Assembly (NCBI RefSeq): GCF_003334785.1
Contig: NZ_QOWV01000017.1
From: Escherichia coli
Lineage (GTDB): Bacteria > Pseudomonadota > Gammaproteobacteria > Enterobacterales > Enterobacteriaceae
Length of the DNA: 64,000 bases
Direction: 5' to 3' (one strand)
Position numbers and translations under genes: made by a program. Positions 24,200 to 64,000 of the stretch are shown here, in pieces. Within the stretch, counting starts at the first letter, position 1. Each line of letters begins with the position of its first letter. Under the pieces are notes generated by a model, which did no database searches, had not been told where the DNA came from, and saw only the letters and a program-made list of their open reading frames with translations.

Positions 24200-24424
24200 A
24201 TCAGACTCCTGAGTGGTTTTTGATTACAAACACCAACAATCTTAGTAAATAACTAATCTAATACCATCAAATAGTTAATCATGATTTTTGTTTTGTGATT
24301 CTGATTAAGAAAAAGAAAATATCAGACGATAAGACAAAATATCAAGCGTTGTGAAGAAATGTTATTTGCTCTTTTGCGTCTATAGTCATGATGTCAAATG
24401 AACGCGTTTCGACAGGAAATCATC

Positions 24425-25750: not shown

Positions 25751-25858
25751 ACTCAAAATCAGACGCCAGAACAAATATTCTGGCGTCTCAGAGAAAAGAA
25801 TCTTATTAATTCTCTGTTACTCTATAACTTCTTAATCACTTCATTGATGGTATTTTAT

Positions 25859-26095: not shown

Positions 26096-26106
26096 GGATG
26101 TTCACA

Positions 26107-27256: not shown

Positions 27257-28141
27257 GTGCGATATGACAAAGAATTAACGGAGAATGAGATGATCAGGCA
27301 GAAGATTCTACAGCAGCTCCTGGAGTGGATTGAGTGCAATCTTGAGCACCCTATTTCAATCGAAGATATCGCACAGAAATCTGGCTACAGCAGACGCAAC
27401 ATCCAGCTTCTGTTCCGAAATTTCATGCATGTGCCTTTGGGAGAATACATTCGCAAACGAAGGCTTTGTCGTGCCGCCATTCTTGTCCGGCTCACCGCGA
27501 AATCTATGCTTGATATTGCACTCTCTTTGCATTTTGATTCACAGCAGTCATTCAGCCGCGAATTTAAAAAGTTATTCGGCTGCTCTCCCCGTGAATACCG
27601 CCACCGTGATTATTGGGATCTCGCAAATATCTTCCCTTCTTTTTTAATACGTCAACAGCAAAAGACGGAGTGTAGATTAATCAACTTTCCTGAGACACCT
27701 ATTTTTGGCAACTCATTTAAATATGACATTGAAGTGTCGAATAAATCACCGGATGAAGAAGTCAAACTACGACGTCATCATTTAGCCAGATGTATGAAGA
27801 ATTTTAAGACGGATATCTATTTCGTTTCCACGTTTGAACCGTCAACAAAATCGGTCGATTTGCTCACGGTTGAAACTTTTGCTGGTACGGTATGTGAATA
27901 TGCTGACATGCCAAAAGAGTGGACAACGACCCGAGGACTTTATGCCTCTTTCCGTTATGAAGGAAACTGGGGAAATTATCCTGACTGGGTGCGTAACATC
28001 TATCTGATAGAGTTACCTGCCAGGGGGTTAGCCAGAGTGAACGGCAGCGATATTGAGCGCTTTTATTACAATGAAGATTTCGTAGAAAAGGATGGCAATG
28101 ATGTTGTTTGCGAAATTTTTATTCCCGTTCGTCCGGTTTAG
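27257..28141 (+). CDS. ykgA: Rob-like regulator: AraC-type HTH N-domain + GyrI-like C-domain
   Basis: 294 aa ORF; N-terminal dual HTH similar to MarA/Rob; C-terminus CEIFIPVRPV resembles the Rob C-terminus; an internal start at MIRQKIL is possible. Confidence 0.75.
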   Translation: MRYDKELTENEMIRQKILQQLLEWIECNLEHPISIEDIAQKSGYSRRNIQLLFRNFMHVPLGEYIRKRRLCRAAILVRLTAKSMLDIALSLHFDSQQSFSREFKKLFGCSPREYRHRDYWDLANIFPSFLIRQQQKTECRLINFPETPIFGNSFKYDIEVSNKSPDEEVKLRRHHLARCMKNFKTDIYFVSTFEPSTKSVDLLTVETFAGTVCEYADMPKEWTTTRGLYASFRYEGNWGNYPDWVRNIYLIELPARGLARVNGSDIERFYYNEDFVEKDGNDVVCEIFIPVRPV

Positions 28142-28169
28142 TTGGTCACTATCTCTTATTGAGTTTTAT

Positions 28170-28205
28170 CCTTGCCTGATACTATTTAATCAGTATCAGG
28201 CAAGG
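28170..28205. terminator. perfect 14-bp inverted repeat between convergent ykgA and eaeH
   Basis: ccttgcctgatact-atttaatc-agtatcaggcaagg read directly; no strong U-tract on either side, so function uncertain. Confidence 0.4.
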
Positions 28206-28280
28206 TATTCAGTGAATAATGGCGTTGAATATTTCAACACCATTATTCTTTATTAGATCGTAACTTTCATACTATTCAAA

Positions 28281-31200
28281 TTATGGCATCTCCTCCTCGC
28301 CATTTTCAGTCTCTGCAGCAACGGCGTTAATTGTCACCTTCACAGGCGTCATTTCGTACCCGCCATACGTCAGTGCGTTGAATGTGAACGTATAGACACC
28401 TGGCTTGCTGGTACTAAATGTACGCGTGATTTTCCCACCTGAGAAATGGTCAGCCTTCGACGGCAGGAATTGATAATCCTTCTCCGTCACTCCTTCCGGA
28501 GCCTCAATGTCGACCCACATACTTCCTCCTACGGGATTGACTCCCGCCATCAGGGTAACCGTCATTGTTGCAGTAGTCTTCCCGTCCGCCACCAGAGAAT
28601 CTACACGTTCTGGAGATGCGGCGAGCACCGCGTTTTTATCATCCGCGACGAATTTAGATTCAGCAGTTTTCGTCGATACCTGACCGTTGGCCTGTTCCAC
28701 TTTCGCCGTGAGTGTATATGTCGCTGCGATAGTGGTAGAGCCGGTGAAAACAGCCTGTCCTTGCTCATTAGTTTTCGCCGTCCCTTTAGGATCCAGAACT
28801 AAATTTTCCGAGCTGGCAGTCAGCGTCACGTCGCTATCCTTCAACAGGTTGTTATTGGCATCAGTCACCGTAACTTTATACGTCTGTTTGGTTTTGCCAT
28901 CCGCCACTGCACGGTTGCCAATCACCTCAATACTGGAGATGGTCGCCGTAGTCTTATCGGCCACAAACGTTACAGACTGCGCATTCGAAGGCTGGTCATT
29001 TCCTGCCGACGCCGTGATCTCATACGTTCCGGCAGTCACGGAGACCACTTTCAGTTCCGCTTTACCCTCCTTGTCGGCGTTCACCATGATATTACCGTCT
29101 GCAAGCGGTTTGACGCCCCGAGGCAGATTAAAGACGACCACAGCGCCAGGCAGAAGGTTGCCGTATTGATCCTTAACCGTTGCCGTCAGCGTAAAGGCAT
29201 CATTGTCGTTTGCCACTTTTGGCGTGCTGCCATCAACCTCCAGGGTCGCCTGACCGGTACTGAAATCCGCCTTGAATTTCACCGTAACCGTCTTCTGAGC
29301 ATTATTCACTGAGGCCGTGATGCTGTGTTCCCCCGCAACCGTTGACATAAGCTCAATGTCCACTTTCCCTGCCGCATTGGTTGTTACTGTATTCCCCGTC
29401 TTGCTGGTCACACCCTGCGGTAAAGTCAGCGTAACTTCTTGCCCCTGCAACGGGTTACCATAGCTGTCCACGACGGTCAGGGTTATCTGGTTAGCAGACT
29501 GTCCATTAGCCAGTTGGTTATTAACCTTCACTGTCATATCACGAATCTCAGCCTTAGATGCGTCACCTGCAACGTTCAGCACCAGTGGCTGAGCAACGGC
29601 ATTTTGGCCGTTCACTCGCGGCATCACAGACAACTGACCCGCGGCAGATCCCAGCGTTAAGGTCGCCACGTAGACCCCATTACCTTTCTCTGTCCAGTTT
29701 CCTGCTGAAGGACGCTCACTCCCCGTGCTGGCGGCACCGCTAAACACTGGTGCATCTGGCTTCAGCCCGGTGACCGGGTTCCCGTACGCATCCTTCACGG
29801 TGAAGGTGAGTTCCGTCGTCATTTTGACGGTCGGAGCCTTATTGTCCGCAACAAGCGTAGAGTTCGCTGATGACATCTCTCCGGCGATGACCGTCAACTG
29901 CGCGGCTTCGGTGGCTGCTGGCTGGCCGTTGAAGAGCGGCATGACACGAAGCTCGCCCGTCTTTCCGCCTGTAGTTAACGTAGCAACATAGGAACAGTCA
30001 CCTTTTTCGGTCCAACTGGAAACGGTCGCCCCTTCAGAGGCGGTCCCCGTCAAACTTGCCGACAACGAAAGACCACTGATAGTGTTGCCATGTGCATCTT
30101 TTGCAATAAGCGTCACGGTTGTGCTTTCGCCGGCTTTTACGTGATCTCCTGCGACAGAGACTTTCGACTGGTTTGAAGATAACGCATCAGCCACCACGGT
30201 TACTTTTGCCGCATTTGCTGCCGCATCCTGTCCATTTAGCTTCGGCATAACTTCTAATTCACCCGCCGTAGAGCCGAGAGTAATCTGCGCAGTCCACGTC
30301 CCATCACCATTATTTGTCCAGCCAGATGCCGTAGAACCTACAGCAGCGGCACCCGCTAATGACGGCGCTTCCGGCGTGAGGCTGGTCACAGGGTTGTCAT
30401 AGGCATCTTTTGCCGTCCAGATTGCCGTAACTGTACCGCCAACCACCGGTTTATCAGGATTCAGGGTGATGGACGAATGTGCTGCATCAAGCGGACCGGC
30501 AACAAACTTCAGCGTTTGTTGTAATGTGCCCAGCTGATACTGCTCGCTGAAAGCACGCACAACAACGTTTCCGGCACGGGTCGAAGAAACCGTGGCGCTG
30601 TAAACGCCTGGTTTTATTTCCGAAATGGCACCAACGGTTACACCATTAGTGTCTTGCGGAACAAATCGCAAGCGGCTGGCTTCTCCCGTCACCGGATTAC
30701 CCTCGGAGTCCACCGCAGTCAACGTCAACGTATAGGCTTGCTGACCATCAGCAACCACATCACCTGACGGCTCGTTAGCGCTCAGGGTGGAGTTTGCCAC
30801 ATCCATCATCGTGGCCCGCAGTTCTGCAGTGACGGTTTTGCTCATGCCATCAACGCTAACAGTAATCGTTGCCTCACCTGACTGCGTTCCGGTAGTAAAG
30901 ACAGACTGATACACCCCTGCTTCAGTTTCGGTGAACTCACCCAGTGTTGGCTTTGCCTGTGATTTAGTGGCCTTCAGGGAACGAGTCACAATATTTCCAG
31001 CCGGTTTGAAGGCTAGTTCAGTCTTGATCTGATCTTTCATGCCCGTGACTGGCTGCCCCTCGGCGTCGCGCAGAGACAGCACCAGCGGTCTTTGCTCATT
31101 ACCGTTAGCAAGCATTTGAATACGGCTCTGACCGTCAAGCGTTAACGCCGTGCGATCGGCGCTCATACCTGCTCCGGTAATGACCACCTCTGTCTGCACG

Positions 31201-45963: not shown

Positions 45964-48158
45964 AATTTGATAAACCCGCAGGGGAAAACCCGATCGATCA
46001 GCTGAAGGTTGTCGGTCGTCCCCATGACCGCATCGACGGACCGCTGAAAACTACCGGCACGGCACGCTACGCCTACGAATGGCATGAAGAAGCCCCCAAC
46101 GCCGCCTATGGCTATATCGTCGGTTCCGCCATTGCCAAAGGACGCCTCACCGCCCTTGATACGGACGCCGCGCAAAAAGCGCCGGGCGTACTGGCTGTCA
46201 TTACCGCCAGTAACGCCGGGGCACTCGGCAAAGGCGACAAAAACACCGCCAGGCTGTTAGGCGGCCCCACTATTGAGCACTATCATCAGGCCATTGCGCT
46301 GGTAGTGGCCGAGACCTTCGAACAGGCGCGAGCGGCGGCCTCGCTGGTGCAGGCACACTATCGCCGTAATAAAGGAGCTTACTCCCTGGCGGACGAAAAA
46401 CAGGCCGTCAATCAGCCGCCGGAAGACACGCCCGACAAAAACGTCGGTGACTTTGACGGGGCTTTCACCTCCGCTGCGGTGAAGATTGATGCTACCTACA
46501 CGACCCCGGACCAGAGCCATATGGCGATGGAGCCGCATGCCTCGATGGCCGTCTGGGATGGAAATAAGCTTACCCTCTGGACCTCAAATCAGATGATTGA
46601 CTGGTGCCGCACCGATCTGGCAAAAACGCTGAAAGTTCCCGTGGAGAATGTGCGTATTATCTCCCCGTATATCGGCGGAGGGTTTGGCGGCAAGCTGTTC
46701 CTGAGAAGCGATGCGCTGCTGGCGGCCCTCGCCGCCCGAGCGGTGAAACGTCCGGTTAAAGTGATGCTCCCCCGCCCCTCTATTCCCAATAACACCACGC
46801 ACCGCCCCGCCACCCTTCAGCACTTGCGTATCGGTGCCGACCAGAGCGGGAAAATCACCGCTATCTCACATGAAAGCTGGTCTGGAAACCTGCCCGGCGG
46901 CACGCCGGAAACGGCGGTACAGCAAAGCGAATTACTCTACGCCGGGGCGAATCGTCATACCGGCCTGCGGCTCGCCACGCTTGATTTGCCGGAAGGGAAC
47001 GCCATGCGTGCGCCCGGCGAAGCCCCCGGTCTGATGGCGCTCGAAATCGCGATCGACGAACTGGCGGAAAAAGCGGGCATCGATCCCGTCGAGTTTCGCA
47101 TCCTGAATGACACTCAGGTTGACCCCGCCGACCCGACGCGCTGCTTCTCTCGCCGTCAGCTTATCGAGTGCTTGCGCACCGGAGCGGATAAATTTGGCTG
47201 GAAGCAGCGCAACGCCACACCCGGACAGGTGCGCGACGGGGAGTGGCTAGTCGGCCACGGTGTTGCGGCGGGCTTTCGCAATAATCTGCTGGAAAAATCG
47301 GGTGCTCGGGTTCACCTCGAACAAAACGGCACCGTTACCGTAGAAACGGACATGACCGACATTGGCACCGGCAGCTACACCATTCTGGCCCAGACGGCAG
47401 CGGAAATGCTTGGCGTACCGCTGGAGCAGGTTGCGGTTCACCTCGGCGATTCCAGTTTCCCGGTTTCTGCGGGTTCTGGTGGACAATGGGGCGCGAATAC
47501 CTCCACCTCCGGCGTTTACGCCGCCTGTATGAAGCTTCGCGAAATGATTGCCTCGGCAGTCGGGTTTGATCCTGAGCAGTCGCAGTTTGCCGACGGCAAG
47601 ATTACCAACGGTACCCGAAGCGCCACGCTACATGAAGCCACCGCAGGCGGCAGACTGACAGCGGAAGAGAGCATTGAATTCGGAACACTGAGCAAAGAGT
47701 ACCAGCAGTCGACCTTTGCCGGGCATTTTGTGGAGGTCGGCGTGCATAGCGCGACGGGAGAAGTTCGGGTCCGGCGTATGCTCGCTGTGTGTGCTGCAGG
47801 ACGCATCCTGAATCCGAAAACTGCGCGCAGCCAGGTCATTGGCGCAATGACTATGGGCATGGGCGCGGCACTGATGGAGGAGCTGGCGGTGGATGACCGT
47901 TTGGGCTACTTCGTTAATCACGATATGGCGGGGTATGAGGTGCCGGTTCATGCGGATATCCCAAAACAGGAGGTGATTTTCCTGGATGATACCGACCCCA
48001 TATCCTCCCCGATGAAGGCCAAAGGTGTCGGTGAGCTGGGCCTGTGCGGCGTGAGCGCGGCTATCGCCAACGCGGTGTATAACGCCACCGGTATTCGGGT
48101 ACGGGATTATCCCATCACTCTGGATAAGCTGCTCGATAAGCTGCCGGATGTGGTTTAA
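45960..48158 (+). CDS. paoC: aldehyde oxidoreductase molybdenum-cofactor subunit
   Basis: 732 aa xanthine-dehydrogenase-family large subunit. Confidence 0.9.
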
Positions 48159-48167
48159 GGAGGAACA

Positions 48168-49124
48168 ATGTCATACCCGCTTTTTGACAAAGACGAACAC
48201 TGGCATAAGCCAGAGCAGGCGTTTCTCACCGATGACCACCGGACCATTCTGCGCTTCGCCGTAGAGGCGCTAATGTCCGGTAAAGGAGCGGTGCTGGTGA
48301 CGCTGGTGGAGATACGCGGCGGCGCGGCGCGCCCGCTCGGGGCGCAGATGGTGGTGCGCGAAGATGGTCGTTACTGCGGTTTTGTCTCTGGCGGCTGCGT
48401 GGAGGCCGCTGCCGCTTTTGAAGCGCTGGAGATGATGGGCTCAGGCCGCGATCGCGAAATTCGCTATGGCGAAGGTTCGCCGTGGTTTGACATCGTTCTG
48501 CCCTGCGGCGGTGGGATCACGCTGACGCTCCATAAACTACGCTCGGCACAGCCTCTGCTCGCCGTGCTGAACCGCCTGGAACAGAGAAAACCGGTGGGGC
48601 TGCGCTACGATCCGCAAGCACAATCGCTGGTGTGCCTGCCCACGCAAACCCGGACGGGCTGGAATCTCAATGGCTTTGAGGTGGGGTTCAGGCCATGCGT
48701 CAGGCTGATGATTTACGGACGTTCTCTTGAGGCGCAGGCAACCGCGAGTCTTGCAGCAGCCACAGGCTATGACAGCCATATCTTCGATCTTTTTCCGGCC
48801 TCAGCCAGCGCTCAGATCGATACCGATACGGCGGTCATTTTGCTGTGCCATGATCTCAACCGGGAGCTGCCAGTGTTGCAGGCCGCGCGAGAAGCAAAAC
48901 CCTTTTATCTCGGCGCATTGGGCAGCTATCGAACCCACACGTTACGTCTGCAAAAGCTCCACGAGCTGGGATGGTCCAGGGAGGAAACAACGCAAATCCG
49001 GGCACCCGTCGGGATATTCCCCAAAGCCCGGGATGCGCATACTCTGGCACTCTCCGTGCTGGCAGAAGTCGCCTCTGTACGTCTCCATCAGGAGGAGGAT
49101 TCATGCCTGCCCCCGTCGTCCTGA
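48168..49124 (+). CDS. paoD: XdhC-like molybdenum cofactor insertion chaperone
   Basis: 318 aa; follows paoC with a 9-bp gap and AGGAGG SD. Confidence 0.85.
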   Translation: MSYPLFDKDEHWHKPEQAFLTDDHRTILRFAVEALMSGKGAVLVTLVEIRGGAARPLGAQMVVREDGRYCGFVSGGCVEAAAAFEALEMMGSGRDREIRYGEGSPWFDIVLPCGGGITLTLHKLRSAQPLLAVLNRLEQRKPVGLRYDPQAQSLVCLPTQTRTGWNLNGFEVGFRPCVRLMIYGRSLEAQATASLAAATGYDSHIFDLFPASASAQIDTDTAVILLCHDLNRELPVLQAAREAKPFYLGALGSYRTHTLRLQKLHELGWSREETTQIRAPVGIFPKARDAHTLALSVLAEVASVRLHQEEDSCLPPSS

Positions 49125-49513
49125 TCCTTGCGGCCGGGCGTGGAGAGCGCTTTCTCGCCTCCGGGGGAAATACCCATAAGTGTATCGGCTGGCGTCAGTC
49201 CCCGGAGGTTGCGCCTTATCGCTGGCCATTTGAAGAAAACGGGAGAACTTTCGACCTTGCGATTGAACCGCAGATTACGACTAATGATCTGCGTCTGATG
49301 TTGAGGCTGGCTCTTGCCGGCGGAGGAATAACAATTGCCACTCAGGAAACTTTCAGGCCATATATTGAAAGCGGTAAGCTTGTATCGCTGCTTGATGACT
49401 TTCTTCCACAATTTCCGGGCTTCTATCTGTATTTCCCACAGCGTCGCAATATTGCACCAAAGCTCCGCGCCCTGATTGACTACGTCAAAGAATGGCGGCA
49501 GCAATTGGCTTAA
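49103..49513 (+). pseudogene. yagP: yagP remnant: short MobA/MocA-like N-terminus fused to the C-terminal part of a LysR-type regulator
   Basis: 136-codon ORF from MPAPVVLILAAGRGERF (nucleotidyltransferase-like motif) continuing into a LysR C-terminal-like sequence; overlaps paoD 3' end by 22 nt in another frame. Confidence 0.55.
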
Positions 49514-49639
49514 ATGTCTGCACCTGCACTGCCTGATGTCAGAACAGTATTTTGATGAATTGCCAAGGTTACAATGGCACAAATACGGCACAGGAGGAAA
49601 CGTGGTGTATTTAAATATGGGGTAACTCTTTGATTTTAA

Positions 49640-49715
49640 TGGTGCCGATAATAGGAGTCGAACCTACGACCTTCGCATTACGAATGCGCTGCTCTACCAA
49701 CTGAGCTATATCGGC
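49640..49715 (-). tRNA. thrW: tRNA-Thr (anticodon CGU)
   Basis: Reverse complement GCCGATATAGCTCAGTTGGTAGAGCAGCGCATTCGTAATGCGAAGGTCGTAGGTTCGACTCCTATTATCGGCACCA folds as cloverleaf with 7-bp acceptor stem, CGT anticodon and encoded CCA. Confidence 0.92.
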
Positions 49716-49829
49716 CCTGAAAGGACATGTTCACGAACGTGAATCACGGTGGACAAGGTTAAAACTAACCGGGCGATGCGTCAATGGCCTTGTGAATCAA
49801 ATGGCTACTTTTGCATCACCCGGTTTTAT

Positions 49830-51083
49830 TTACGCACGAATGGTGTAATCACCAATGCCGATCCACTTGTAAGTGGTCAGTGCTTCCAGCCCCATTGGGC
49901 CACGCGCGTGGAGTTTTTGTGTGCTTACCGCCACTTCCGCACCCAGACCAAACTGGCCGCCGTCGGTAAAACGCGTAGAGGCGTTAACGTAAACAGCGGA
50001 CGAATCCACTTCGTTAACAAAACGCTGGGCGTTGCGCATATCGCGGGTCAGGATCGCATCGGAGTGTTGTGTGCCGTGTTCACGAATATGGGCGATGGCA
50101 TCGTCAAGATCGCTGACGATTTTGACGTTCAAATCTAATGACAGAAACTCATCGTCATACTCTTCGGCTTTAACAGCAACCACCTTCGCAGGGCCTGCCT
50201 GCAACTGCGCCAGTGCAGCTGCATCTGCGTGTAATGTCACGCCACTTTCCGCCATTTGTTTGCTTAATGCGGGCAGGAAGCTATCGGCGATGTTTTTATT
50301 CACCAGCAACGTTTCAACCGTATTACATGTGCTCGGACGCTGAGTTTTCGCGTTGACGATCACTTTTAATGCTTCAGCGATCTCTACACTTTCATCAACG
50401 TAAATATGGCATACGCCTATACCACCTGTGATCACCGGGATTGTCGACTGTTCACGGCACAGTTTATGCAAACCAGCGCCACCACGCGGGATCAGCATGT
50501 CGATGTATTTATCCATACGCAGCATTTCACTGACCAGCGCACGGTCAGGATTATCAATCGCCTGCACGGCACCCGCCGGTAAGCCGCAGGATTTCAGGGC
50601 GTCCTGAATCACCGCCACCGTTGCAGCGTTAGTGCGACACGTTTCTTTGCCACCGCGCAGGATCACCGCATTACCGGTTTTCAGGCACAGCGAAGCGACA
50701 TCAACCGTCACGTTCGGGCGCGCTTCATAAATCACGCCAATAACCCCCAGCGGTACGCGACGACGCTCAAGACGCAGGCCGCTGTCCAGTACGCCGCCAT
50801 CGATTACCTGCCCCACCGGATCGGCGAGGTTGCACACCTGACGTACATCGTCGGCAATGCCTTTCAGCCGTGCGGGCGTCAGTGCCAGACGGTCAAGCAT
50901 CGCTTCGCTAAGGCCATTGGCTCGCGCGTCAGCAACATCCTGGGCGTTAGCGTTGAGGATGATTTCGCTTTGTGCTTCCAGTTCATCGGCGATTTTTTCC
51001 AGCACGCGATTTTTTTCGCGGCTGGAGAGTTGCGCTAATTTATACGAGGCTTGCTTCGCGGCAATGCCCATTTGTTCCAGCAT
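49830..51083 (-). CDS. proA: gamma-glutamyl phosphate reductase
   Basis: 417 aa; aldehyde-dehydrogenase-like fold. Confidence 0.95.
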
Positions 51084-51094
51084 CAGCCTGCTCC

Positions 51095-52198
51095 TTAACG
51101 GGTAATCATGTCATCACGGTGAACGGCAACCGGGCCGTATTCATATCCCAGTATTGCATCAATTTCTTGCGAGTGGTGTCCGGCAATACGGCGTAATGCA
51201 TCGCTGTTGTAACGACTGACGCCGTGGGCGATATCGCGGCCTTCGAGGTTGCAAATGCGGATGACTTCACCACGCGAGAAATTGCCAGTCACGCTTTTAA
51301 TGCCTTTCGGCAACAGGGAGCTGCCGCGTTCCAGAATGGCGGCAGTTGCCCCTTCATCTACCGTGATTTCACCCGCCGGCGGCGCACCGAAAATCCAGCG
51401 TTTACGGTTTTCAAGCGGAGTCGCCTGGGCATGGAACAGCGTACCGACGGAAATGCCTTCCATCACATCACCAATAACGCCCGGCTTGCTGCCCGCGGCA
51501 ATAATGGTGTCGATACCCGCACGGCAAGCCACGTCAGCGGCCTGCAATTTGGTACTCATGCCGCCAGTTCCGAGGCCTGAAACGCTGTCACCGGCAATCG
51601 CGCGCAGTGCGTCATCAATGCCGTAAACATCTTTAATCAGTTCTGCCTGCGGATTGCTGCGCGGGTCAGCGGTATACAAACCTTTTTGATCGGTCAGCAG
51701 CAACAGTTTATCGGCACCCGCAAGAATCGCCGCCAGCGCAGAAAGGTTATCGTTATCGCCGACCTTAATCTCTGCCGTAGCGACAGCATCGTTCTCATTG
51801 ATTACCGGAACGATATTGTTATCGAGCAACGCTCGCAGGGTGTCGCGGGCGTTCAGGAAGCGTTCACGGTCTTCCATATCAGCACGGGTCAGCAGCATTT
51901 GCCCGACGTGAATGCCATAAATCGAAAACAGCTGTTCCCACAGTTGAATCAGTCGACTCTGCCCTACCGCCGCCAGCAGTTGTTTCGAGGCGATGGTCGC
52001 TGGCAGTTCCGGGTAACCCAGGTGCTCACGTCCGGCGGCGATCGCGCCCGACGTCACAATAACAATCCGATGCCCGGCGGCATGTAACTGCGCGCACTGG
52101 CGAACAAGTTCAACGATATGGGCACGGTTCAGACGGCGCGATCCGCCTGTTAGCACACTGGTGCCGAGTTTTACCACCAGCGTCTGGCTGTCACTCAT
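51095..52198 (-). CDS. proB: glutamate 5-kinase
   Basis: Start at [19 protein letters not shown] (367 aa); amino-acid kinase domain + PUA domain. Confidence 0.95.
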
Positions 52199-53579: not shown

Positions 53580-54038
<459 letters not shown>

Positions 54039-56093: not shown

Positions 56094-57551
56094 GTGTCTG
56101 AACTGTCTCAATTATCTCCACAGCCGCTGTGGGATATTTTTGCCAAAATCTGTTCTATTCCTCACCCGTCCTATCATGAAGAGCAACTCGCTGAATACAT
56201 TGTTGGTTGGGCAAAAGAGAAAGGTTTCCATGTCGAACGCGATCAGGTAGGTAATATCCTGATTCGTAAACCTGCTACCGCAGGTATGGAAAATCGTAAA
56301 CCGGTCGTCTTACAGGCCCACCTCGATATGGTGCCGCAGAAAAATAACGACACCGTGCATGACTTCACGAAAGATCCTATCCAGCCTTATATTGATGGCG
56401 AATGGGTTAAAGCGCGCGGCACCACGCTGGGTGCGGATAACGGCATTGGTATGGCCTCTGCGCTGGCGGTTCTGGCTGACGAAAACGTGGTTCACGGCCC
56501 GCTGGAAGTGCTGCTGACCATGACCGAAGAAGCCGGTATGGACGGTGCGTTCGGCTTACAGGGCAACTGGTTGCAGGCTGATATTCTGATTAACACCGAC
56601 TCCGAAGAAGAAGGTGAAATCTACATGGGTTGTGCGGGGGGTATCGACTTCACCTCCAACCTGCATTTAGATCGTGAAGCGGTTCCAGCTGGTTTTGAAA
56701 CCTTCAAGTTAACCTTAAAAGGTCTGAAAGGCGGTCACTCCGGCGGGGAAATCCACGTTGGGCTGGGTAATGCCAACAAACTGCTGGTGCGCTTCCTGGC
56801 GGGTCATGCGGAAGAACTGGATCTGCGCCTTATCGATTTCAACGGCGGCACACTGCGTAACGCCATCCCGCGTGAAGCCTTTGCGACCATTGCTGTCGCA
56901 GCTGATAAAGTCGACGTCCTGAAATCTCTGGTGAATACCTATCAGGAGATCCTGAAAAACGAACTGGCAGAAAAAGAGAAAAATCTGGCCTTGTTGCTGG
57001 ACTCTGTAGCGAACGATAAAGCTGCCCTGATTGCGAAATCTCGCGATACCTTTATTCGTCTGCTGAACGCCACCCCGAACGGTGTGATTCGTAACTCCGA
57101 TGTAGCCAAAGGTGTGGTTGAAACCTCCCTGAACGTCGGTGTGGTGACCATGACTGACAATAACGTAGAAATTCACTGCCTGATCCGTTCACTGATCGAC
57201 AGCGGTAAAGACTACGTGGTGAGCATGCTGGATTCGCTGGGTAAACTGGCTGGCGCGAAAACCGAAGCGAAAGGCGCATATCCTGGCTGGCAGCCGGACG
57301 CTAATTCTCCGGTGATGCATCTGGTACGTGAAACCTATCAGCGCCTGTTCAACAAGACGCCGAACATCCAGATTATCCACGCGGGCCTGGAATGTGGTCT
57401 GTTCAAAAAACCGTATCCGGAAATGGACATGGTTTCTATCGGGCCAACTATCACCGGTCCACACTCTCCGGATGAGCAAGTTCACATCGAAAGCGTAGGT
57501 CATTACTGGACACTGCTGACTGAACTGCTGAAAGAAATTCCGGCGAAGTAA
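56094..57551 (+). CDS. pepD: cytosolic dipeptidase (M20 family) PepD
   Basis: 485 aa from GTG start (MSELSQLSPQPLWDIF...). Confidence 0.95.
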   Translation: MSELSQLSPQPLWDIFAKICSIPHPSYHEEQLAEYIVGWAKEKGFHVERDQVGNILIRKPATAGMENRKPVVLQAHLDMVPQKNNDTVHDFTKDPIQPYIDGEWVKARGTTLGADNGIGMASALAVLADENVVHGPLEVLLTMTEEAGMDGAFGLQGNWLQADILINTDSEEEGEIYMGCAGGIDFTSNLHLDREAVPAGFETFKLTLKGLKGGHSGGEIHVGLGNANKLLVRFLAGHAEELDLRLIDFNGGTLRNAIPREAFATIAVAADKVDVLKSLVNTYQEILKNELAEKEKNLALLLDSVANDKAALIAKSRDTFIRLLNATPNGVIRNSDVAKGVVETSLNVGVVTMTDNNVEIHCLIRSLIDSGKDYVVSMLDSLGKLAGAKTEAKGAYPGWQPDANSPVMHLVRETYQRLFNKTPNIQIIHAGLECGLFKKPYPEMDMVSIGPTITGPHSPDEQVHIESVGHYWTLLTELLKEIPAK

Positions 57552-57563
57552 TTATTTGATTTG

Positions 57564-57595
57564 CTGCCGGATGGCGTTTAATCGCCTTCCGGCAG
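57564..57595. terminator. bidirectional hairpin terminator between convergent pepD and prfH
   Basis: ctgccggatggcg-tttaat-cgccttccggcag (13-bp stem, one mismatch) followed by tttca. Confidence 0.6.
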
Positions 57596-57607
57596 TTTCA
57601 TCCTTCA

Positions 57608-58165
57608 TTATCCTTCGATAAAAGCCATCCCTGTAAATGTCCGTCGCGGGTTGCCACGTTCAATCTGGTGATGGAACATTCGCCGCTGCGATTTCAGCGC
57701 CGCGCTATTTTCCTGTTGCTGTTGCTCCAGCTTCCAGGCAATCAGCAATCGTGCCAGCCGCTTGTTAGCATGCTGACTACGCTCTGACTGAACCTTCACG
57801 CTAATACCGGATGCCAAATGCGTGGCGCGTACCGCCGAGTCGGTTTTATTGACATGTTGACCGCCCGGCCCCGACGAACGCAGCGTCTCATAACGGATTG
57901 CATCCGATTGTTCCTGCTCATCAGCGGTAAAACGCCCAATGCCCAGAAACCAGTTTTTGCGCCCATGATGAGGCCGATACGGACTCGGACAAATCCACTG
58001 AATAGTGCCACACCAGCTTTCGCTTAATGCCCATGCGTTATCGCCATCGAGAGAAACCAGCGCCGAACGCAGTGTGTCAGAGTAGCGGCCCGTTTCTGTT
58101 TCCAGCACCGTTACCGCGACGTCTTGCCGGGTAAAAACGACCAACAGAGAAGAACGCTGCGCCAA
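57608..58165 (-). CDS. prfH: peptide chain release factor homologue PrfH, probably N-terminally truncated remnant
   Basis: 185-aa ORF containing GGQ motif ([11 protein letters not shown]); its 5' end overlaps an rtcB fragment in a different frame. Confidence 0.6.
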
Positions 58166-58343
58166 TCGGGTAGCCGCGTCCGGGGTGTAAATCTGGCATC
58201 CCCACTACGCGCTGCATGTTGGGTAAATTTGCCGTGGTGTGTAATTGTTGGATCGCTAAACTCTCGATCCACAGGTCATCAGATGCGATGGTAAATACCG
58301 CATCGGATAAGGGACGAATATATTTGCCCATGTACCATTCCAT
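58077..58343 (-). pseudogene. ykfJ: N-terminal fragment of an RtcB-family RNA ligase (ykfJ-like)
   Basis: 88-aa ORF with RtcB-like N-terminus ([19 protein letters not shown]) that then degenerates; overlaps the prfH 5' region. Confidence 0.55.
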
Positions 58344-58648
58344 TTATACTCGTCATACTTCAAGTTGCATGTACTGCGACTGCGTTCGTTCACCCCAGTC
58401 ACTTACTTATGTAAGCTCCTGGCGATTCACTCGCTTGTCGCCTTCCTGCAACTCGAATTATTTAGAGTATATAAATATAAAAATCAGGAAATGGCAGACG
58501 AATCCAGGGCAAGAAAAAAAGAATTAATCCTGGAAAGGTCTGCAAAGAGTCATTGATAAAGGATTTGTCATGATTTACCTCCTTGCAGTTTGTGGAATCA
58601 GAAAACGCGCACATACCAGGCGGGCGTTATTTTCATTGCAAGCTGGAT

Positions 58649-59101
58649 TTAATGTTGCGGTTTATATCGCATATAAAAATTAGTAAACCACGCTCCCCGG
58701 CATTCAACGCGCTGCTGCTTAACTGTCTGAAAACCATAACGTTCAAAAAAGGGTTTTGCGGTTATGCTTGCGTCCACCGTAAGTTCGGATTCAGACTTAA
58801 TCAAAGGTTTTAACAAAGCGCTGGCAACCCCACGGCGGGTGTATTCAGGGTCAACAAATAACATATCGATATAATGTTCAATGCGGGAAATAAAACCAAC
58901 CGGTTGTGCATTAATGATCGCAACCCACACTTGTGATTTCGCGAGTTTCTCCTTCCAGCGAGATTCGTCAATCTGCGCCCAGGCGGAAATTTGTTGTGGT
59001 GAATAATGCTGACTGGCGGTCATCGTAACCGCTCTAATGAAAATAGCGCATAGTTGCTGAAAATCGCCAGGCTGATAGTTTCTTATTTGTATGTTATTCA
59101 T
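58649..59101 (-). CDS. yafP: GNAT-family acetyltransferase
   Basis: 150 aa; last gene of the dinB operon. Confidence 0.85.
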   Translation of the reverse strand: MNNIQIRNYQPGDFQQLCAIFIRAVTMTASQHYSPQQISAWAQIDESRWKEKLAKSQVWVAIINAQPVGFISRIEHYIDMLFVDPEYTRRGVASALLKPLIKSESELTVDASITAKPFFERYGFQTVKQQRVECRGAWFTNFYMRYKPQH

Positions 59102-59110
59102 AATATAAAT

Positions 59111-59509
59111 TCAAAAACGCATGCGAAACGCTTCTGCCATTTTCCCAATTTTATGCATTTGGTTGTTATCTCGAGCCAGTTTATGAGGTTCAGGTTTCAG
59201 AATGGCAATGAGCAACCATGCTTGCTCATCAAACGCCCCCTGACAATATACCAAATGCGCTTCGTCATTCGTTCTGCTGAATTGGCGCAACTGTGGCGGA
59301 AATGGATTATTCTCATTTGCCAGATGAATATGAGCAACTCGCTCAAATTTGATTAATGGCCAGGTAAAGGAGTCGTCGTAGAGTGCATCGCGACCAAATA
59401 TATCTGGCAAAACACCGTCACGCTTATAGGAAATAAAATCCGCCGTTAACGCATCAAGTTCCTCTGCTGTAAGTTGCAGGCGAATAAGTTTTGTTTTGAA
59501 TACCCGCAT
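59111..59509 (-). CDS. yafO: ribosome-dependent mRNA interferase toxin YafO
   Basis: 132 aa; 2-bp gap after yafN. Confidence 0.85.
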   Translation of the reverse strand: MRVFKTKLIRLQLTAEELDALTADFISYKRDGVLPDIFGRDALYDDSFTWPLIKFERVAHIHLANENNPFPPQLRQFSRTNDEAHLVYCQGAFDEQAWLLIAILKPEPHKLARDNNQMHKIGKMAEAFRMRF

Positions 59510-59511
59510 CC

Positions 59512-59805
59512 TTATTCCTTAAAGTCATTGAAATCATCATCCGTCATATCATTAAGATATTGTTCAGCGCGGCGTGTAATTTCCTCTAATCTTGCAGCAC
59601 TTGGACGGAAGCGCGCCTTTATGGGCTTTTTCTCCTCTTGTTCAGCAAGCATGTCCATTAACGCTTCGAATGCGCTGGCACTTAAGAGATATCCTGCGGG
59701 GCGATTATTAGAAAGAACCGCAACCGGTTGATCAATAAAGTATTTAGCTGGGTTTTTACGTAACTCAGTGATATTGACCGATTTTTCAGCGAGAATTCGA
59801 TGCAT
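59512..59805 (-). CDS. yafN: antitoxin YafN (Phd/YefM-like)
   Basis: 97 aa, acidic C-terminus. Confidence 0.85.
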   Translation of the reverse strand: MHRILAEKSVNITELRKNPAKYFIDQPVAVLSNNRPAGYLLSASAFEALMDMLAEQEEKKPIKARFRPSAARLEEITRRAEQYLNDMTDDDFNDFKE

Positions 59806-59856
59806 ACAGTGATACCCTCATAATAATGCACACCAGAATATACATAATAGTATACA

Positions 59857-60912
59857 TCATAATCCCAGCACCAGTTGTCTTTCCATTTGCGGGTCAAGCA
59901 ACGTCACATGCAGCCCCACCAGACGCACACCGCGCCCGCCGCGGCGTTCATCCCAGGTTTTACGCGCGGTGGCGATTAGATCAGCTTTATTCAGCCGCGG
60001 CCAGACGTGCTCCTGGGTGGTTTGCTGAAAATCGTCGAACTTTAATTTCACCCCCTGGCGAGCAATCAGTAAATCAGGTTTTACCTTTGCCAGACGGCGT
60101 TCAAGTTCCGGATACAGCCGCTCGATAATCGCTTCACATTCAGACCAGTGATGAATATCTTCCGCCATCGTGCGTTCCACGCCGACGGATTTTCGCAACC
60201 GTTCGCTGTTAACATCGCGTTCGTCAATCCCCTGACTACGCTCCCACAAAATGCGGCCAAATTTGCCAAAGCGTTTAAGCAGCATCACCAGATCACACTT
60301 TTGTACATCACCGCAGGTCCGCAGCCCCATCGCTTCCAGTTTTGCCGCTGAGACTTTGCCGACGCCGGGGATTTTTGCCAGCGGTAAGGTTTGTAAAAAT
60401 GCCGGAACTTCTGCCGGCGTAATCACAAACTGGCCGTTGGGTTTATTCATGTCGGAGGCGATTTTGGCGAGAAACTTTACTGGTGCCACGCCCGCAGACG
60501 CCGTCAGTTGCAGCTCGTTGAAGATTGTCTGGCGGATTTCCTGGGCGATGAGGGTCGCAGAACCGTGGCAATGGACGCTATCGGTGACATCGAGATAAGC
60601 CTCATCCAGTGACAACGGTTCAATGCGCGAGGTGTAGCGCGAGAAGATTTCACGGATATGATTTGAGGCTTCTTTGTAGGCGTCAAAGCGCCCCGGAAGC
60701 AAGGTGAGATGTGGGCATAATTTGAGCGCCATCCCTGTCGGCATAGCGCTACGTACGCCAAATTTACGCGCGGGATAATTGGCGGTGCTGATCACCCCCC
60801 GACGTTCGCGGCTGCCGCCAATAGCAATAGGGATATCGCGCAGGGCGGGATTGTCGCGCATCTCCACTGCGGCGAAAAAGCAGTCCATATCCACATGAAT
60901 GATTTTACGCAT
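59857..60912 (-). CDS. dinB: DNA polymerase IV (Y-family, SOS-inducible)
   Basis: 351 aa from [20 protein letters not shown]. Confidence 0.95.
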
Positions 60913-60926
60913 TGCTCACCTCTCAA

Positions 60927-60946
60927 CACTGGTAAAGTATACAGTG
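60927..60946 (-). promoter_or_regulatory. LexA (SOS) box of the dinB promoter
   Basis: cactggtaaagtatacagtg on + strand = CACTGTATACTTTACCAGTG on the dinB strand (CTG-N10-CAG), 15 bp upstream of the dinB start. Confidence 0.75.
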
Positions 60947-60982
60947 ATTTCAGGGTTTGAGAAATGCGTAAAGATTCAGCAT

Positions 60983-61873
60983 TTAACGCGTTCGCTGCGA
61001 AAGCACCTGCTGCTTATCCAGCTTTTGCACCAGCGGCTGCACCACTTTATCCCCATGCTGACCAAAGTATTGATACAGCGTATCGGACGCACTTTTGGTC
61101 AGCACCATAATCTCAATGCGCCGGTTGCCCGCGCTTTGCGGATTTTTGGAATCCAGCAGCATCTGGTCCGCCATTGCGCTTACCTGCATCACTTTATCTT
61201 CCGGCATTCCGGCCTCTTCCAGCACCCGACGAGCCGAAAGCGCGCGGTCACCCGAAAGGTTCCAGTTGTTGTAGATATTGTTTTTGTAGGCCATCGCATC
61301 GGTATGCCCGGTAATAATAATTTTATTATCGAGCGAGTCGAACACTGGCGCGAGCTCCACCAGCAGCGTTTTAAAGAACGGCATAATCTTCGCGCTGCCG
61401 CGTTCAAACATATTGCGGTTCTGGTCGTCTTTAATCAGCACGCGTAATCCCTGGGGAACAATCTCCATCTCCAGATTCGCTTCCATATGCGCATCACGGG
61501 CAATGGTGTTGATACTGGTTGCCAGCTCACCAAGCTCGGTGGCGGATTTCTTCTTCAGCAGCGCCGTTTTCTCATTCACATCACGCGCTTTTTTCTCCGT
61601 CTCTTCCGGCACCGCCACGGTGGCAGGTTTTGGCGGATGAGACGGGCTGATTTTATTTAACGGCGACAGCCCACCACCGTTAAAAATCGACTGCCCGTGC
61701 AGCGCGGCGATAATGCTTTCACGCTCGGATTTACTGACGCTGTTGACAATCAACTTTATTGTCGTCACCAAAGGGGCCGAGCGTATTTCCGAGGTTTCTG
61801 CCCGCTTTACCTTAGACGCGATGCCCGGCAAACAGATGGCGATTGACGCCGATCTTAACGCCGGATTGATCAA
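60983..61873 (-). pseudogene. lafU: MotB-like stator protein of the Flag-2 lateral flagellar system, N-terminally truncated
   Basis: ORF has OmpA/MotB-like C-terminal peptidoglycan-binding region but no N-terminal TM helix; its 5' end overlaps the lfhA fragment. Confidence 0.6.
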
Positions 61874-63452
61874 CCAGGCGCAGGCGCAAACCCGGCGTAA
61901 AGATGTTGCCAGCGAGGCCGATTTCTACGGCGCGATGGACGGGGCATCGAAGTTTGTGCGCGGGGACGCCATCGCCGGGATGATGATTCTGGCGATCAAC
62001 CTGATCGGCGGCGTCTGTATCGGGATCTTCAAATACAACCTGAGCGCCGATGCTGCCTTCCAGCAGTATGTGCTGATGACCATCGGCGACGGCCTGGTGG
62101 CGCAGATCCCTTCCCTGCTGCTCTCCACCGCGGCGGCGATTATCGTCACCCGCGTCAGCGACAACGGCGATATCGCCCATGACGTGCGTAACCAGCTGCT
62201 GGCAAGCCCGTCGGTGCTCTACACCGCCACCGGGATTATGTTCGTGCTGGCGGTGGTACCGGGAATGCCGCACCTGCCGTTTTTGCTGTTCAGCGCCCTG
62301 CTTGGTTTTACCGGCTGGCGGATGAGCAAACAGCCGCTGGCGGCGGAGGCGGAAGAGAAAAGCCTCGAAACGCTGACCCGCACCATCACCGAAACCAGCG
62401 AGCAGCAGGTCAGTTGGGAAACCATTCCGCTGATCGAGCCTATCAGTTTAAGCCTCGGTTACAAACTGGTGGCGCTGGTGGACAAAGCACAGGGTAACCC
62501 GCTCACCCAGCGGATTCGCGGCGTGCGGCAGGTGATTTCTGACGGCAACGGCGTGCTGCTGCCGGAGATCCGCATTCGGGAAAACTTCCGCCTTAAGCCC
62601 AGTCAGTACGCCATTTTCATCAACGGCATAAAGGCTGATGAAGCGGATATTCCGGCGGATAAACTGATGGCCCTGCCCTCCAGCGAAACCTACGGCGAGA
62701 TTGACGGCGTGCAGGGGAACGACCCGGCGTACGGGATGCCGGTCACCTGGATCCAGGCGGCGCAGAAAGCGAAGGCGCTGAATATGGGGTATCAGGTGAT
62801 CGACAGCGCCAGCGTGATCGCTACCCATGTAAATAAGATTGTGCGCAGCTATATTCCTGATTTGTTTAACTATGATGATATTACGCAGTTGCATAACCGT
62901 TTATCGTCGACGGCACCGCGTCTGGCGGAAGATTTGAGCGCGGCGCTCAATTACAGCCAGTTGCTGAAAGTGTACCGGGCGCTGCTGACCGAAGGCGTTT
63001 CCCTGCGCGATATCGTCACCATCGCCACCGTGCTGGTCGCCAGTAGCACGGTGACGAAAGATCATATTCTGCTGGCGGCCGATGTGCGCCTGGCATTGCG
63101 GCGCAGCATTACCCATCCGTTCGTTCGCAAGCAGGAGCTGACGGTGTATACGCTGAATAATGAGCTGGAAAATCTGCTGACCAACGTGGTGAATCAGGCG
63201 CAACAGGGCGGGAAAGTGATGCTCGACAGCGTGCCGGTCGATCCGAATATGCTCAACCAGTTCCAGAGTACGATGCCACAGGTGAAAGAGCAGATGAAAG
63301 CGGCGGGGAAAGACCCGGTGCTGCTGGTGCCACCGCAGCTGCGCCCTTTGCTGGCGCGTTATGCAAGGTTGTTTGCGCCGGGGCTGCATGTGCTGTCGTA
63401 TAACGAAGTGCCGGATGAGCTGGAGTTGAAGATTATGGGGGCGTTGATGTAA
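61713..63452 (+). pseudogene. lfhA: FlhA-like flagellar export gate protein of Flag-2, lacking about the first 115 residues
   Basis: ORF aligns with FlhA from GAERI(S/A)EV(S/G)ARF...MPGKQMAIDADLNAG onward; no FHIPEP N-terminal TM region. Confidence 0.65.
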
Positions 63453-63475
63453 GTATCCAGCATTGGTGCACAACT

Positions 63476-63667
63476 GCCGGATGCGGCGTGAACGCCTTAT
63501 CCGTCCTACCGTTCAGGCACAAGTTTGTAGGCATGATAAGACGCGCCAGCGTCGCATCAGGCATCTGCGCATAACTGCCGGATGCGGCATAAACGCCTTA
63601 TCCGGCCTACCGATCCGGCACAAGTTTGTAGGCATGATAAGACGCGCTAGCGTCGCATCAGGCATCT
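63476..63667. repeat. REP array, four units in two inverted pairs
   Basis: tgccggatgcggc(g/a)t(g/a)aacgccttatccg(t/g)cctac at 63476-63510 and 63577-63611; gtaggcatgataagacgcgc(c/t)agcgtcgcatcaggcatc at 63528-63566 and 63629-63667. Confidence 0.85.
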
Positions 63668-63675
63668 GCGCACAA

Positions 63676-64000
63676 TTATGAAATGATACGCTCCCCGGCA
63701 CTAAAATCCGTTACGTCCCCCGCCCAATCGATGGGATATAACCCTCGCGCGACATCGCGATGGAACGTTGAGAATGGCCAATCACTCACTTGCTTTACCC
63801 AACCATGCTTTACTGGATTTATATAAATATAATCAACATGATGCCTATAATCTTTGGTATTGCGGATGGCGTGCTCCCAAAAACGTGGTTGCCAGATATT
63901 TTTCAATCCACAAGCATGGGTAAATTGCTTTTTAATTTCCCGCCAGCGCGAGGAAAAATCATCATCGCCTTCAGGTAATGTCCAGATACAGTGCATATGC
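63676..64000 (-). CDS. rayT: REP-associated tyrosine transposase (RayT/TnpA-REP), 3' part only; 5' end lies beyond the window
   Basis: C-terminal 106+ residues incl. ...HCIWTLPEGDDDFSSRWREIKKQF...; flanked by REP array; HUH motif region truncated by window edge. Confidence 0.75.
   Translation of the reverse strand, partial: HMHCIWTLPEGDDDFSSRWREIKKQFTHACGLKNIWQPRFWEHAIRNTKDYRHHVDYIYINPVKHGWVKQVSDWPFSTFHRDVARGLYPIDWAGDVTDFSAGERIIS

What the first reader, a model, noticed from the sequence alone, without database searches (positions are those of the whole stretch)
49514..49829. Unoccupied thrW integration site
tRNA-Thr(CGU) is intact and flanked directly by proA on one side and the yagP remnant on the other, with only about 125 bp and 115 bp spacers, and there is no integrase or prophage gene anywhere in the window. 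From memory, thrW is the attachment site of the CP4-6 cryptic prophage in K-12 and of other islands elsewhere, so this strain has the empty-site configuration. That makes it useful for reconstructing the ancestral junction.
Basis: partly seen in the sequence, partly recalled or inferred. Interest (0 to 1): 0.45.

Follow-up and report, generated by a model that had tools for sequence, protein, structure and literature searches.

The report
Island-free thrW site with integrase relic
This E. coli strain has nothing inserted at the heavily used thrW tRNA integration hotspot, which is an ordinary and already-sequenced state shared by about one in six complete genomes, but the "spacer" beside the tRNA is really the last 59 bases of an ancient phage integrase gene, so the site is not pristine.

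Summary
An intact tRNA-Thr(CGU) lies at 49640-49715 (-), 126 bp from the yagP remnant and 114 bp from proA. The window has no island, no second thrW fragment and no integrase gene. The junction equals the left flank of K-12's CP4-6 attR joined to the right flank of attL, across a 60-bp repeat (49629-49688).

The state is ordinary. The 901 bp compared (49100-50000) are 100% identical in ATCC 8739, and 948 of 5,426 complete E. coli genomes have the contiguous junction.

The interpretation needs one correction. Positions 49567-49625 are not neutral spacer. They are the last ~19 codons and stop of an SfX/mEp213-type phage integrase (E = 6e-9 with the tRNA excluded), broken by a 1-nt deletion. They still carry two GGCACA motifs 11 bp apart that match the arm-site-like motifs flanking the phage attP core.

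The same relic, with the same frameshift, lies outside CP4-6 in K-12 and in an O157-type strain. It therefore predates those insertions.

The site is the valid pre-CP4-6 attB, but it is an old prophage-deletion scar and not the primordial junction. Interest is low.

The parts
48168..49124 (+). paoD, the last gene of the paoABCD operon; left-hand core-genome flank
   Evidence: ORF; annotated as paoD in the collinear ATCC 8739
49175..49513 (+). yagP remnant: C-terminal third of a LysR-family regulator. K-12 annotates the ORF from 49103 as yagP. The left edge at about 49175-49179 is the scar of a deletion of roughly 5.6 kb
   Evidence: PGAP pseudogene 'missing N-terminus'; translation; O157 strains have the full-length LysR gene plus six more annotated features (five genes and a ykgR fragment) between it and paoD
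49514..49566 (.). Backbone spacer after the yagP stop codon, with no phage homology
   Evidence: Only 19/57 identical to mEp213 in the alignment. The only phage-database hit is the phi458 record, whose matched end is identical to this chromosomal stretch over 49530-49685
49567..49625 (+). Relic of the 3' end of an SfX/mEp213-type tyrosine integrase gene: NGTNTAQEE, a 1-nt deletion near 49597-49599, then NVVYLNMG and the stop at 49623-49625
   Evidence: 50/60 identical to mEp213 int and 55/60 to the 204-bp int pseudogene beside thrW in strain AZ162. Phage Int ends ...SRNGTNTAQEENVVYLNAR*. With the tRNA excluded, E = 6e-9 to 9e-7 and the only significant phage-gene hits (E below 1e-6) are integrase 3' ends
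49576..49592 (+). Two GGCACA motifs 11 nt apart (49576-49581 and 49587-49592), probably arm-type Int-binding sites retained from the int-proximal attP arm
   Evidence: In mEp213 all four GGCACA in 4,115 nt lie within about 120 bp of the attP core, on the same strand and on both arms. In the window this is the only 11-nt-spaced pair among 26 occurrences in 64 kb. Binding itself is inferred
49626..49639 (.). About 14 nt directly 3' of the tRNA (CTCTTTGATTTTAA). This stretch is shared by the ends of many unrelated thrW elements and extends the att identity beyond the tRNA
   Evidence: GTAACTnATTGATTTnAA recurs downstream of thrW in many species and element types; 12/14 identical to mEp213
49640..49715 (-). 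thrW, tRNA-Thr(CGU), intact; its 3' end at 49640 faces yagP
   Evidence: The identical 76-nt gene is present in at least 120 Enterobacterales species representatives
49639..49656 (.). 18-bp identity segment used by the P4-like satellite of the near-isogenic strain LR-64-2
   Evidence: Exact identity limits of both LR-64-2 junctions against the window; island content
49639..49686 (.). 48-bp core shared with the attP of lambdoid phages mEp213, HK542, mEp043, HK75, HK446, mEpX2, ECP1 and SfX
   Evidence: misc_feature 'prophage attachment site (type CP4-6)' in mEp213 aligns here
49629..49688 (.). 60-bp segment that is duplicated at both ends of CP4-6 in K-12: 11 nt downstream of the tRNA plus 49 nt of its 3' part
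   Evidence: Exact identity limits; the annotated CP4-6 end at 297205 maps to window 49689
49716..49829 (.). thrW-proA spacer (114 bp), unremarkable
   Evidence: Identical in occupied and empty strains; no promoter or terminator consensus found here
49830..51083 (-). proA, right-hand core-genome flank

Best explanation
The region is the bacterial attachment site (attB) in the 3' part of the thrW tRNA gene, in its island-free state. Tyrosine integrases of several element families recombine a matching attP with the 3' part of thrW, and the incoming copy restores the tRNA. Families seen here use 18 bp (P4-like satellite), 48 bp (SfX/mEp213 lambdoid phages) or 60 bp (CP4-6) of identity. In this strain nothing is inserted. 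The site is not virgin, however. An SfX/mEp213-like prophage once sat here with its int gene abutting thrW. A deletion then removed the prophage from codon -19 of int outward, past its far att site, and into host DNA near yagP. That deletion left 59 nt of int 3' end, now frameshifted, with two arm-type-site-like motifs. This scarred site became the standard E. coli attB, into which CP4-6 and other elements later inserted. Shown: the anatomy, the homologies, the identity limits and the population frequency. Inferred: the order of events, that the GGCACA motifs bind Int, and that the site is still recombination-competent.
For: Intact tRNA. The window equals K-12 attR-left plus attL-right. The near-isogenic LR-64-2 is 100% identical over 25 kb but carries an 11.6-kb P4-like satellite exactly at 49639-49656. 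The contiguous junction is present in 948 of 5,426 genomes. Phage attP annotations match 49639-49686. The int relic is significant without the tRNA, matches at codon level with a frameshift, and has a sharp left boundary at about 49567. The same relic and the same 1-nt deletion occur in the O157-type flank (58/59 identical) and outside CP4-6 in K-12, where the flank is identical to the window up to 49688. The motif clusters around the phage attP core. There is no second core copy and no integrase gene in the window. Reviews list thrW among the most targeted tDNAs, and SfX/SfI integrate there (PMC7545054; PMC3306764).
Against: The relic is only 59 nt. The protein-level match alone is weak (9 residues, E = 1.1), so the case rests on nucleotide similarity plus position. 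No outgroup with a relic-free LysR-thrW junction was recovered, so the deletion model is not directly shown. Int binding to GGCACA was not tested. Never-occupied and precisely excised histories give the same sequence.
Confidence: 0.85

Rival explanations
1. The empty site is a derived state: this lineage once carried CP4-6 (or a satellite) and lost it by precise Int/Xis excision, which regenerated attB.
For: The backbone is K-12-like: 57500-64000 is 100% identical to MG1655. Strains 100% identical over 25 kb differ only by the presence or absence of 9-12 kb elements split into the matched region (at thrW where examined, in LR-64-2), which shows fast turnover. The 60-bp CP4-6 repeats are identical, so excision would leave no trace.
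Against: No positive evidence exists. The sequence is equally what a never-occupied site looks like. CP4-6 in K-12 is riddled with IS elements and is generally regarded as cryptic (own knowledge).
Confidence: 0.3
2. A pristine ancestral attB: the 126-bp spacer is native host DNA, and the phages copied it (tRNA 3' end plus downstream sequence) into their attP/int region.
For: Phage attP sites do carry host-like tRNA 3' ends. The 14 nt just past the tRNA are shared by many element families and could be ancestral host sequence.
Against: In the phages the matching stretch is the in-frame C-terminus of a 386-aa integrase, conserved as far as Edwardsiella phage GF-2. The chromosomal copy is truncated at codon -19 and frameshifted. 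In a lysogen the int end abuts the tRNA 5' part and not the host's downstream spacer, so aberrant excision could not deliver that spacer to the int 3' end (inference). Strain AZ162 has a longer (204-bp) pseudogene of the same allele at the same position.
Confidence: 0.05
3. The similarity of 49567-49625 to integrase genes is chance or low-complexity noise.
For: It is short, and tblastn alone gives E = 1.1.
Against: blastn gives E = 6e-9 against 2.3 Gb with the tRNA excluded. All significant hits are the same gene end in the same position relative to the att core. Identity drops from 83% to 33% at a sharp boundary.
Confidence: 0.02

Closest known systems
thrW attB of E. coli K-12 as reconstructed from the CP4-6 attL (thrW) and attR (ptwF) junctions
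   Same: Identical sequence on both sides. The 60-bp duplicated segment maps to 49629-49688, and the CP4-6 boundary annotated in NC_000913.3 maps to window 49689.
   Different: Here the two halves are contiguous, with no 34-kb CP4-6, no intF and no ptwF copy.
Empty thrW locus of E. coli ATCC 8739 and about 950 other complete genomes
   Same: 100% identical over 49100-50000 in ATCC 8739, with the same gene order paoD-yagP'-thrW-proA.
   Different: None at the site. The window is a different strain (99.6% identity over 4497-58231, with a K-12-type right end).
attP/int junction of SfX-type lambdoid phages (SfX, mEp213, mEp043, HK542, HK75, HK446, mEpX2, ECP1)
   Same: The 48-bp core equals the thrW 3' part. 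The stretch just outside it matches the int 3' end, including two GGCACA motifs at the same distance from the core.
   Different: The window has only the last 19 codons, frameshifted. There is no second arm, no xis and no phage genes. It resembles the int-side prophage junction truncated 73 bp (49567-49639) from the tRNA end.
Degraded integrase pseudogenes beside tRNA genes (for example the 204-bp int fragment at thrW in strain Ecol_AZ162)
   Same: Same allele (ends ...NVVYLNMG*) and same position relative to thrW.
   Different: The AZ162 fragment is longer, lacks the 1-nt deletion, and is followed by an island with a type I R-M system. The window's relic is too short to be annotated.

Membership tests
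Unoccupied tRNA-gene attB for tyrosine-integrase elements | Intact tRNA gene whose 3' part matches the attP cores of known elements | tested here: met
   tRNA; the annotated phage attP core aligns to 49639-49686
Unoccupied tRNA-gene attB for tyrosine-integrase elements | Sequence equals the recombinant of attL and attR from occupied genomes | tested here: met
   K-12 CP4-6 and the LR-64-2 satellite; identity limits 49629-49688 and 49639-49656
Unoccupied tRNA-gene attB for tyrosine-integrase elements | No direct repeat of the core and no integrase or element genes between the flanking core genes | tested here: met
   Single match of the 25-mer with up to 3 mismatches. No integrase homology beyond the relic. 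Only 126 bp separate yagP' and thrW
Unoccupied tRNA-gene attB for tyrosine-integrase elements | Site is competent for integration | not testable with these tools
   Inferred only, from near-identical strains that carry elements at this exact position
Pristine (never scarred) ancestral junction | Flanks free of element-derived DNA | tested here: not met
   49567-49625 is an integrase 3'-end relic
SfX/mEp213-type tyrosine integrase gene | Nucleotide and codon-level homology to the int gene at the expected position next to the att core | tested here: met
   50/60 nt identical; NGTNTAQEE/NVVYLNMG* against NGTNTAQEENVVYLNAR*; E = 6e-9
SfX/mEp213-type tyrosine integrase gene | Complete ORF with the catalytic domain | tested here: not met
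   Only about 19 codons remain, with a 1-nt deletion, and nothing lies upstream of 49567. It is a relic and not a gene
CP4-6 cryptic prophage | intF, the ptwF partial tRNA copy and CP4-6 cargo between thrW and yagP | tested here: not met
   All are absent
Arm-type Int-binding sites (lambda-like attP arm) | Repeated motif on both arms of attP, absent elsewhere, bound by the Int N-terminal domain | tested here: inconclusive
   The motif distribution fits, but binding was not tested

The most novel reading that the evidence does not exclude
The standard 'empty' thrW site of E. coli is a fixed half-attP. The integrase relic keeps two arm-type Int-binding sites at their native distance from the core. 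If so, the site would behave like a prophage-end (attL/attR-like) substrate and not like a minimal attB. That could change integration efficiency, Xis dependence, or tandem integration and deletion for SfX-type phages, and so contribute to the hotspot's rapid turnover. In K-12 it would also make ptwF plus the relic a second, arm-bearing target.
Probability: 0.12. Interest if true: 0.4.

Novelty: already known. Interest (0 to 1): 0.12.

Why it matters
As an empty hotspot it matters little. The same sequence is public in hundreds of genomes, and thrW is a textbook integration site. Two practical points follow. First, this window gives the correct pre-insertion reference for mapping CP4-6, P4-like satellite and SfX-type junctions. 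Second, studies that treat the yagP-thrW spacer as ancestral host DNA should know that about half of it is phage-derived, and that the true primordial sequence downstream of thrW was lost in an older deletion. The relic lies at K-12 297269-297327, where NC_000913.3 shows no annotated feature.

Tried and rejected
1. Identifying the window as ATCC 8739: rejected. Identity is 99.6%, the right end differs, and the window has the K-12-type yafP/yafO and Flag-2 scar.
2. Outgroup dating: I scanned species representatives with the exact thrW gene. All 120 loci returned were read. Many carry an integrase 3' end or a conserved element-like end directly downstream of thrW, including E. albertii and E. 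whittamii.
3. Literature search for the relic ('ptwF'; thrW with attB, excision or empty site): only general hotspot and Shigella phage papers turned up, and none describes the relic.
4. Promoter and terminator scan of 49400-49900: one weak promoter-like hit inside the tRNA and no terminator, so uninformative.
5. Rfam at a permissive threshold: only the tRNA.
6. Repeat search of 48000-52000: only short, chance-level repeats and no att duplication.
7. My first thought that the N-terminal 24 residues of the yagP ORF come from a MobA-like gene was not tested and is dropped. The O157 comparison only shows a deletion between the paoD 3' flank and the LysR gene.
8. An NCBIfam scan of yagP failed because of a frame error in my coordinates and was not repeated.

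Full report
**1. Observation**

ARAGORN finds a single tRNA in the window: tRNA-Thr, anticodon CGT, at 49640-49715 on the minus strand. Rfam agrees (tRNA, 71.8 bits, E = 1.9e-15). proA occupies 49830-51083 (-) and proB follows it. On the other side, paoD ends at 49124 and a LysR C-terminal pseudogene (K-12 yagP) runs to 49513. The spacers are 126 bp and 114 bp, so the coordinates and description are correct.

**2. What strain context this is**

The 901 bp around the site are 100% identical to E. coli ATCC 8739. The window is not that strain, however. It is 99.6% identical over 4497-58231 and diverges after 58.2 kb. There it is 100% identical to K-12-lineage strains, with prfH, yafP, yafO, yafN, dinB, lafU and a truncated flhA-like gene. 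Positions 30000-54999 are 100% identical to several phylogroup-A-like isolates.

Annotation of the collinear genomes lists no integrase or prophage gene. tblastn of three integrases associated with thrW against the whole window gives only noise, except for a 9-residue perfect match at 49573-49599.

**3. Is the site empty?**

K-12 MG1655 annotates CP4-6 from inside thrW (262898) to 297205, with intF and yagP at the far end.
- K-12's yagP-side flank is identical to the window up to 49688.
- K-12's thrW-side flank is identical to the window from 49629 rightwards.
- The two overlap in a 60-bp segment (49629-49688) that is duplicated at the ends of CP4-6.

The window is therefore exactly the island-free recombinant.

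A near-isogenic strain, LR-64-2, is 100% identical over 25 kb. It carries an 11.6-kb P4-like satellite at the same place, encoding an integrase, AlpA, a TOPRIM/DUF927 primase, Psu and an Ogr/Delta protein. Its identity segment is 18 bp (49639-49656).

A 25-nt probe of the thrW 3' end with up to 3 mismatches finds no second copy in the window. A query centred on the junction (49500-49780) is covered at 80% or more in one place in 948 of 5,426 complete genomes. The tool can join pieces across gaps of up to about 640 bp for this 281-nt query, so this count could include sites with a small insertion. The empty state is real, common and already public.

**4. The correction: an integrase relic**

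Phage searches returned lambdoid phages whose annotated 'CP4-6-type' attP matches not only the tRNA 3' part but window 49572-49685 as a whole. These phages are mEp213, mEp043, HK542, HK75, HK446, mEpX2, ECP1 and SfX.

In mEp213 the integrase CDS ends 12 bp before the 48-bp core, so the extra similarity lies inside int. Translation confirms it.

| Source | C-terminal sequence |
|---|---|
| mEp213 Int | ...IISRNGTNTAQEENVVYLNAR* |
| Window | NGTNTAQEE, a 1-nt deletion, then NVVYLNMG*, with the stop at 49623-49625 |
| Strain AZ162 (204-bp int pseudogene beside thrW, not frameshifted) | ...SRNGTNTAQEENVVYLNMG* |

With the tRNA removed from the query, 49572-49625 still hits these integrase 3' ends at E = 6e-9 to 9e-7 in 2.3 Gb. 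The only other hits are the phi458 record, which matches the whole query at 100% (see section 8), and two marginal matches at E of 0.3 and 0.9.

Identity to mEp213 is 50/60 in 49567-49625. It falls to 19/57 in 49514-49566, so the boundary is sharp.

The O157-type strain F1 E4, which has a full-length LysR gene, carries the same relic with the same 1-nt deletion (58/59 identical) on its yagP-side flank. K-12 carries it outside CP4-6. By coordinate mapping this is about 297269-297327 in K-12, where NC_000913.3 lists no feature.

The relic therefore predates CP4-6 and the split of these lineages.

**5. Arm-site-like motifs**

The relic contains GGCACA at 49576 and 49587, 11 nt apart. This is the only such pair among 26 occurrences in the 64-kb window.

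In the 4.1-kb mEp213 locus all four GGCACA copies lie within about 120 bp of the attP core, all on one strand. Two are in the int 3' end and two are in the far arm, where a GTCACA variant also lies 11 nt upstream of one copy. This is the layout expected of lambda-like arm-type Int-binding sites.

Other integrase families abutting thrW in other species show analogous 11-nt doublets. Binding itself is inferred and was not tested.

**6. Mechanism**

Established knowledge of tyrosine integrases, supported by the anatomy here, gives the following picture. Elements carry an attP that copies the tRNA 3' part. Int-mediated crossover within the identity segment inserts the element and rebuilds the tRNA, and the displaced 3' fragment ends up at the far junction.

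For the relic, the most economical history is an SfX-like prophage whose int end abutted thrW. A later deletion ran from codon -19 of int, past the far att site, and into host DNA next to yagP. That would explain why no second core copy remains and why 49530-49566 has no phage homologue other than the phi458 record's matching end (49514-49529 was not queried).

The reverse direction (phages copying host DNA) is unlikely for three reasons.
- The phage version is an intact, conserved coding end.
- The host version is truncated and frameshifted.
- In a lysogen the int end faces the tRNA 5' part and not the host spacer.

Never-occupied and precisely excised histories for CP4-6 or the satellites cannot be distinguished, because the repeats are identical.

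**7. Comparison with the known, and verdict**

Reviews list thrW among the most frequently targeted tDNAs in E. coli, with PAIs in strains 536, APEC O1 and UM146 (PMC7545054). Shigella serotype-converting phages integrate at thrW downstream of proA, sometimes in tandem (PMC3306764).

The scan of species representatives shows an identical thrW in at least 120 Enterobacterales species, nearly all with an element beside it. None of the papers I read in my limited searches mentions the relic.

The finding is a correct identification of an ordinary, already-sequenced state. The only addition is that the 'spacer' is partly an ancient integrase/attP-arm scar. This limits its use as an 'ancestral junction' to the pre-CP4-6 stage.

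**8. Side observations**
- yagP itself is the scar of a deletion of roughly 5.6 kb. O157:H7 has an MFS transporter, an alpha/beta hydrolase, a LysR gene, a ykgR fragment, a hypothetical gene and an SDR oxidoreductase between paoD and the full-length LysR gene.
- The window also has the K-12-type Flag-2 remnant.
- crl is intact in the window.
- The phage record phi458 is identical to window 49530-49685 (yagP 3' flank, relic and 46 nt of the thrW 3' part) near its end, and the 411-nt ORF just beyond that match, the length of K-12 yagP, is labelled 'tail assembly protein'.
- A 44.8-kb circular 'plasmid' is a lambdoid genome with a thrW-type attP next to int and an Avs2 gene.

Noticed in passing
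window 49103-49513, junction at about 49175-49179: yagP is the scar of a deletion of roughly 5.6 kb. In O157:H7 an MFS transporter, an alpha/beta hydrolase, a LysR gene, a ykgR fragment, a hypothetical gene and an SDR oxidoreductase lie between paoD and a full-length LysR gene. The window keeps only the C-terminal third of that LysR gene. 2,684 of 5,426 genomes cover at least 80% of a 261-bp query spanning the scar junction.
   Followed up: partly
window 60983-63452: K-12-type Flag-2 (lateral flagella) remnant: a lafU ORF and an N-terminally truncated flhA-like ORF overlap head-to-head. ATCC 8739 instead continues into motA, a FliA-like sigma factor, fliL and fliK.
   Followed up: partly
window 57608-58343: A prfH ORF (annotated as a pseudogene with an internal stop in the collinear ATCC 8739) overlaps an 88-aa ORF at 58077-58343. 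This looks like another small decay scar, shared with K-12. ATCC 8739 additionally has an IS1 next to it that truncates yafO, which the window lacks.
   Followed up: no
window 4309-4670 and 63460-63673; ORF 63676-63996: A tandem repeat of roughly 92 nt in the yahH region has an inverted, about 78% identical relative at the right end of the window. That relative sits next to a partial ORF (MHCIWTLPEGDDDF...) that I recall as the REP-associated transposase RayT/YafM. These are probably REP/BIME arrays.
   Followed up: no
window 53580-53981: crl is intact here, whereas MG1655 annotates crl as split into two fragments.
   Followed up: no
L004 (E. coli LR-64-2) 19838-31103: An 11.6-kb P4-like satellite sits in thrW of a strain otherwise 100% identical to the window. 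At the yagP-proximal end it carries a phosphoribosyltransferase plus DprA-like gene pair, possibly cargo in the satellite's variable region.
   Followed up: no
L131 (pCE-O153H30-A) 1386-5044: A 44.8-kb circular record labelled as a plasmid looks like a lambdoid phage genome. Its integrase gene ends in a 44-bp thrW-like attP, with an Avs2 anti-phage gene immediately beyond it.
   Followed up: partly
L130 (phage phi458, OP434518.1) 1-583: The phage record is identical to window 49530-49685 (yagP 3' flank, integrase relic and 46 nt of the thrW 3' part), and the 411-nt ORF just beyond that match, the length of K-12 yagP, is labelled 'tail assembly protein'. IS1 and a Pin invertase lie nearby. This suggests a chimeric or mis-delimited record.
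   Followed up: partly
L009-L128, the 100 nt downstream of thrW: Across the 120 species representatives returned, thrW is identical, and many carry an integrase 3' end or a conserved element-like end beside it. At least three distinct integrase 3'-end families each carry a doublet spaced 11 nt apart (GGCACA, GTCCCA, TGACACAA). About 18 nt past the tRNA (GTAACTnATTGATTTnAA) are shared by many of them.
   Followed up: partly
L005 (E. coli Ecol_AZ162) 2852-3055: A 204-bp integrase pseudogene of the same allele as the window's relic abuts thrW. It is followed by an island with a type I restriction-modification system (hsdM/hsdS), and may represent an earlier decay stage or an independent event.
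   Followed up: partly
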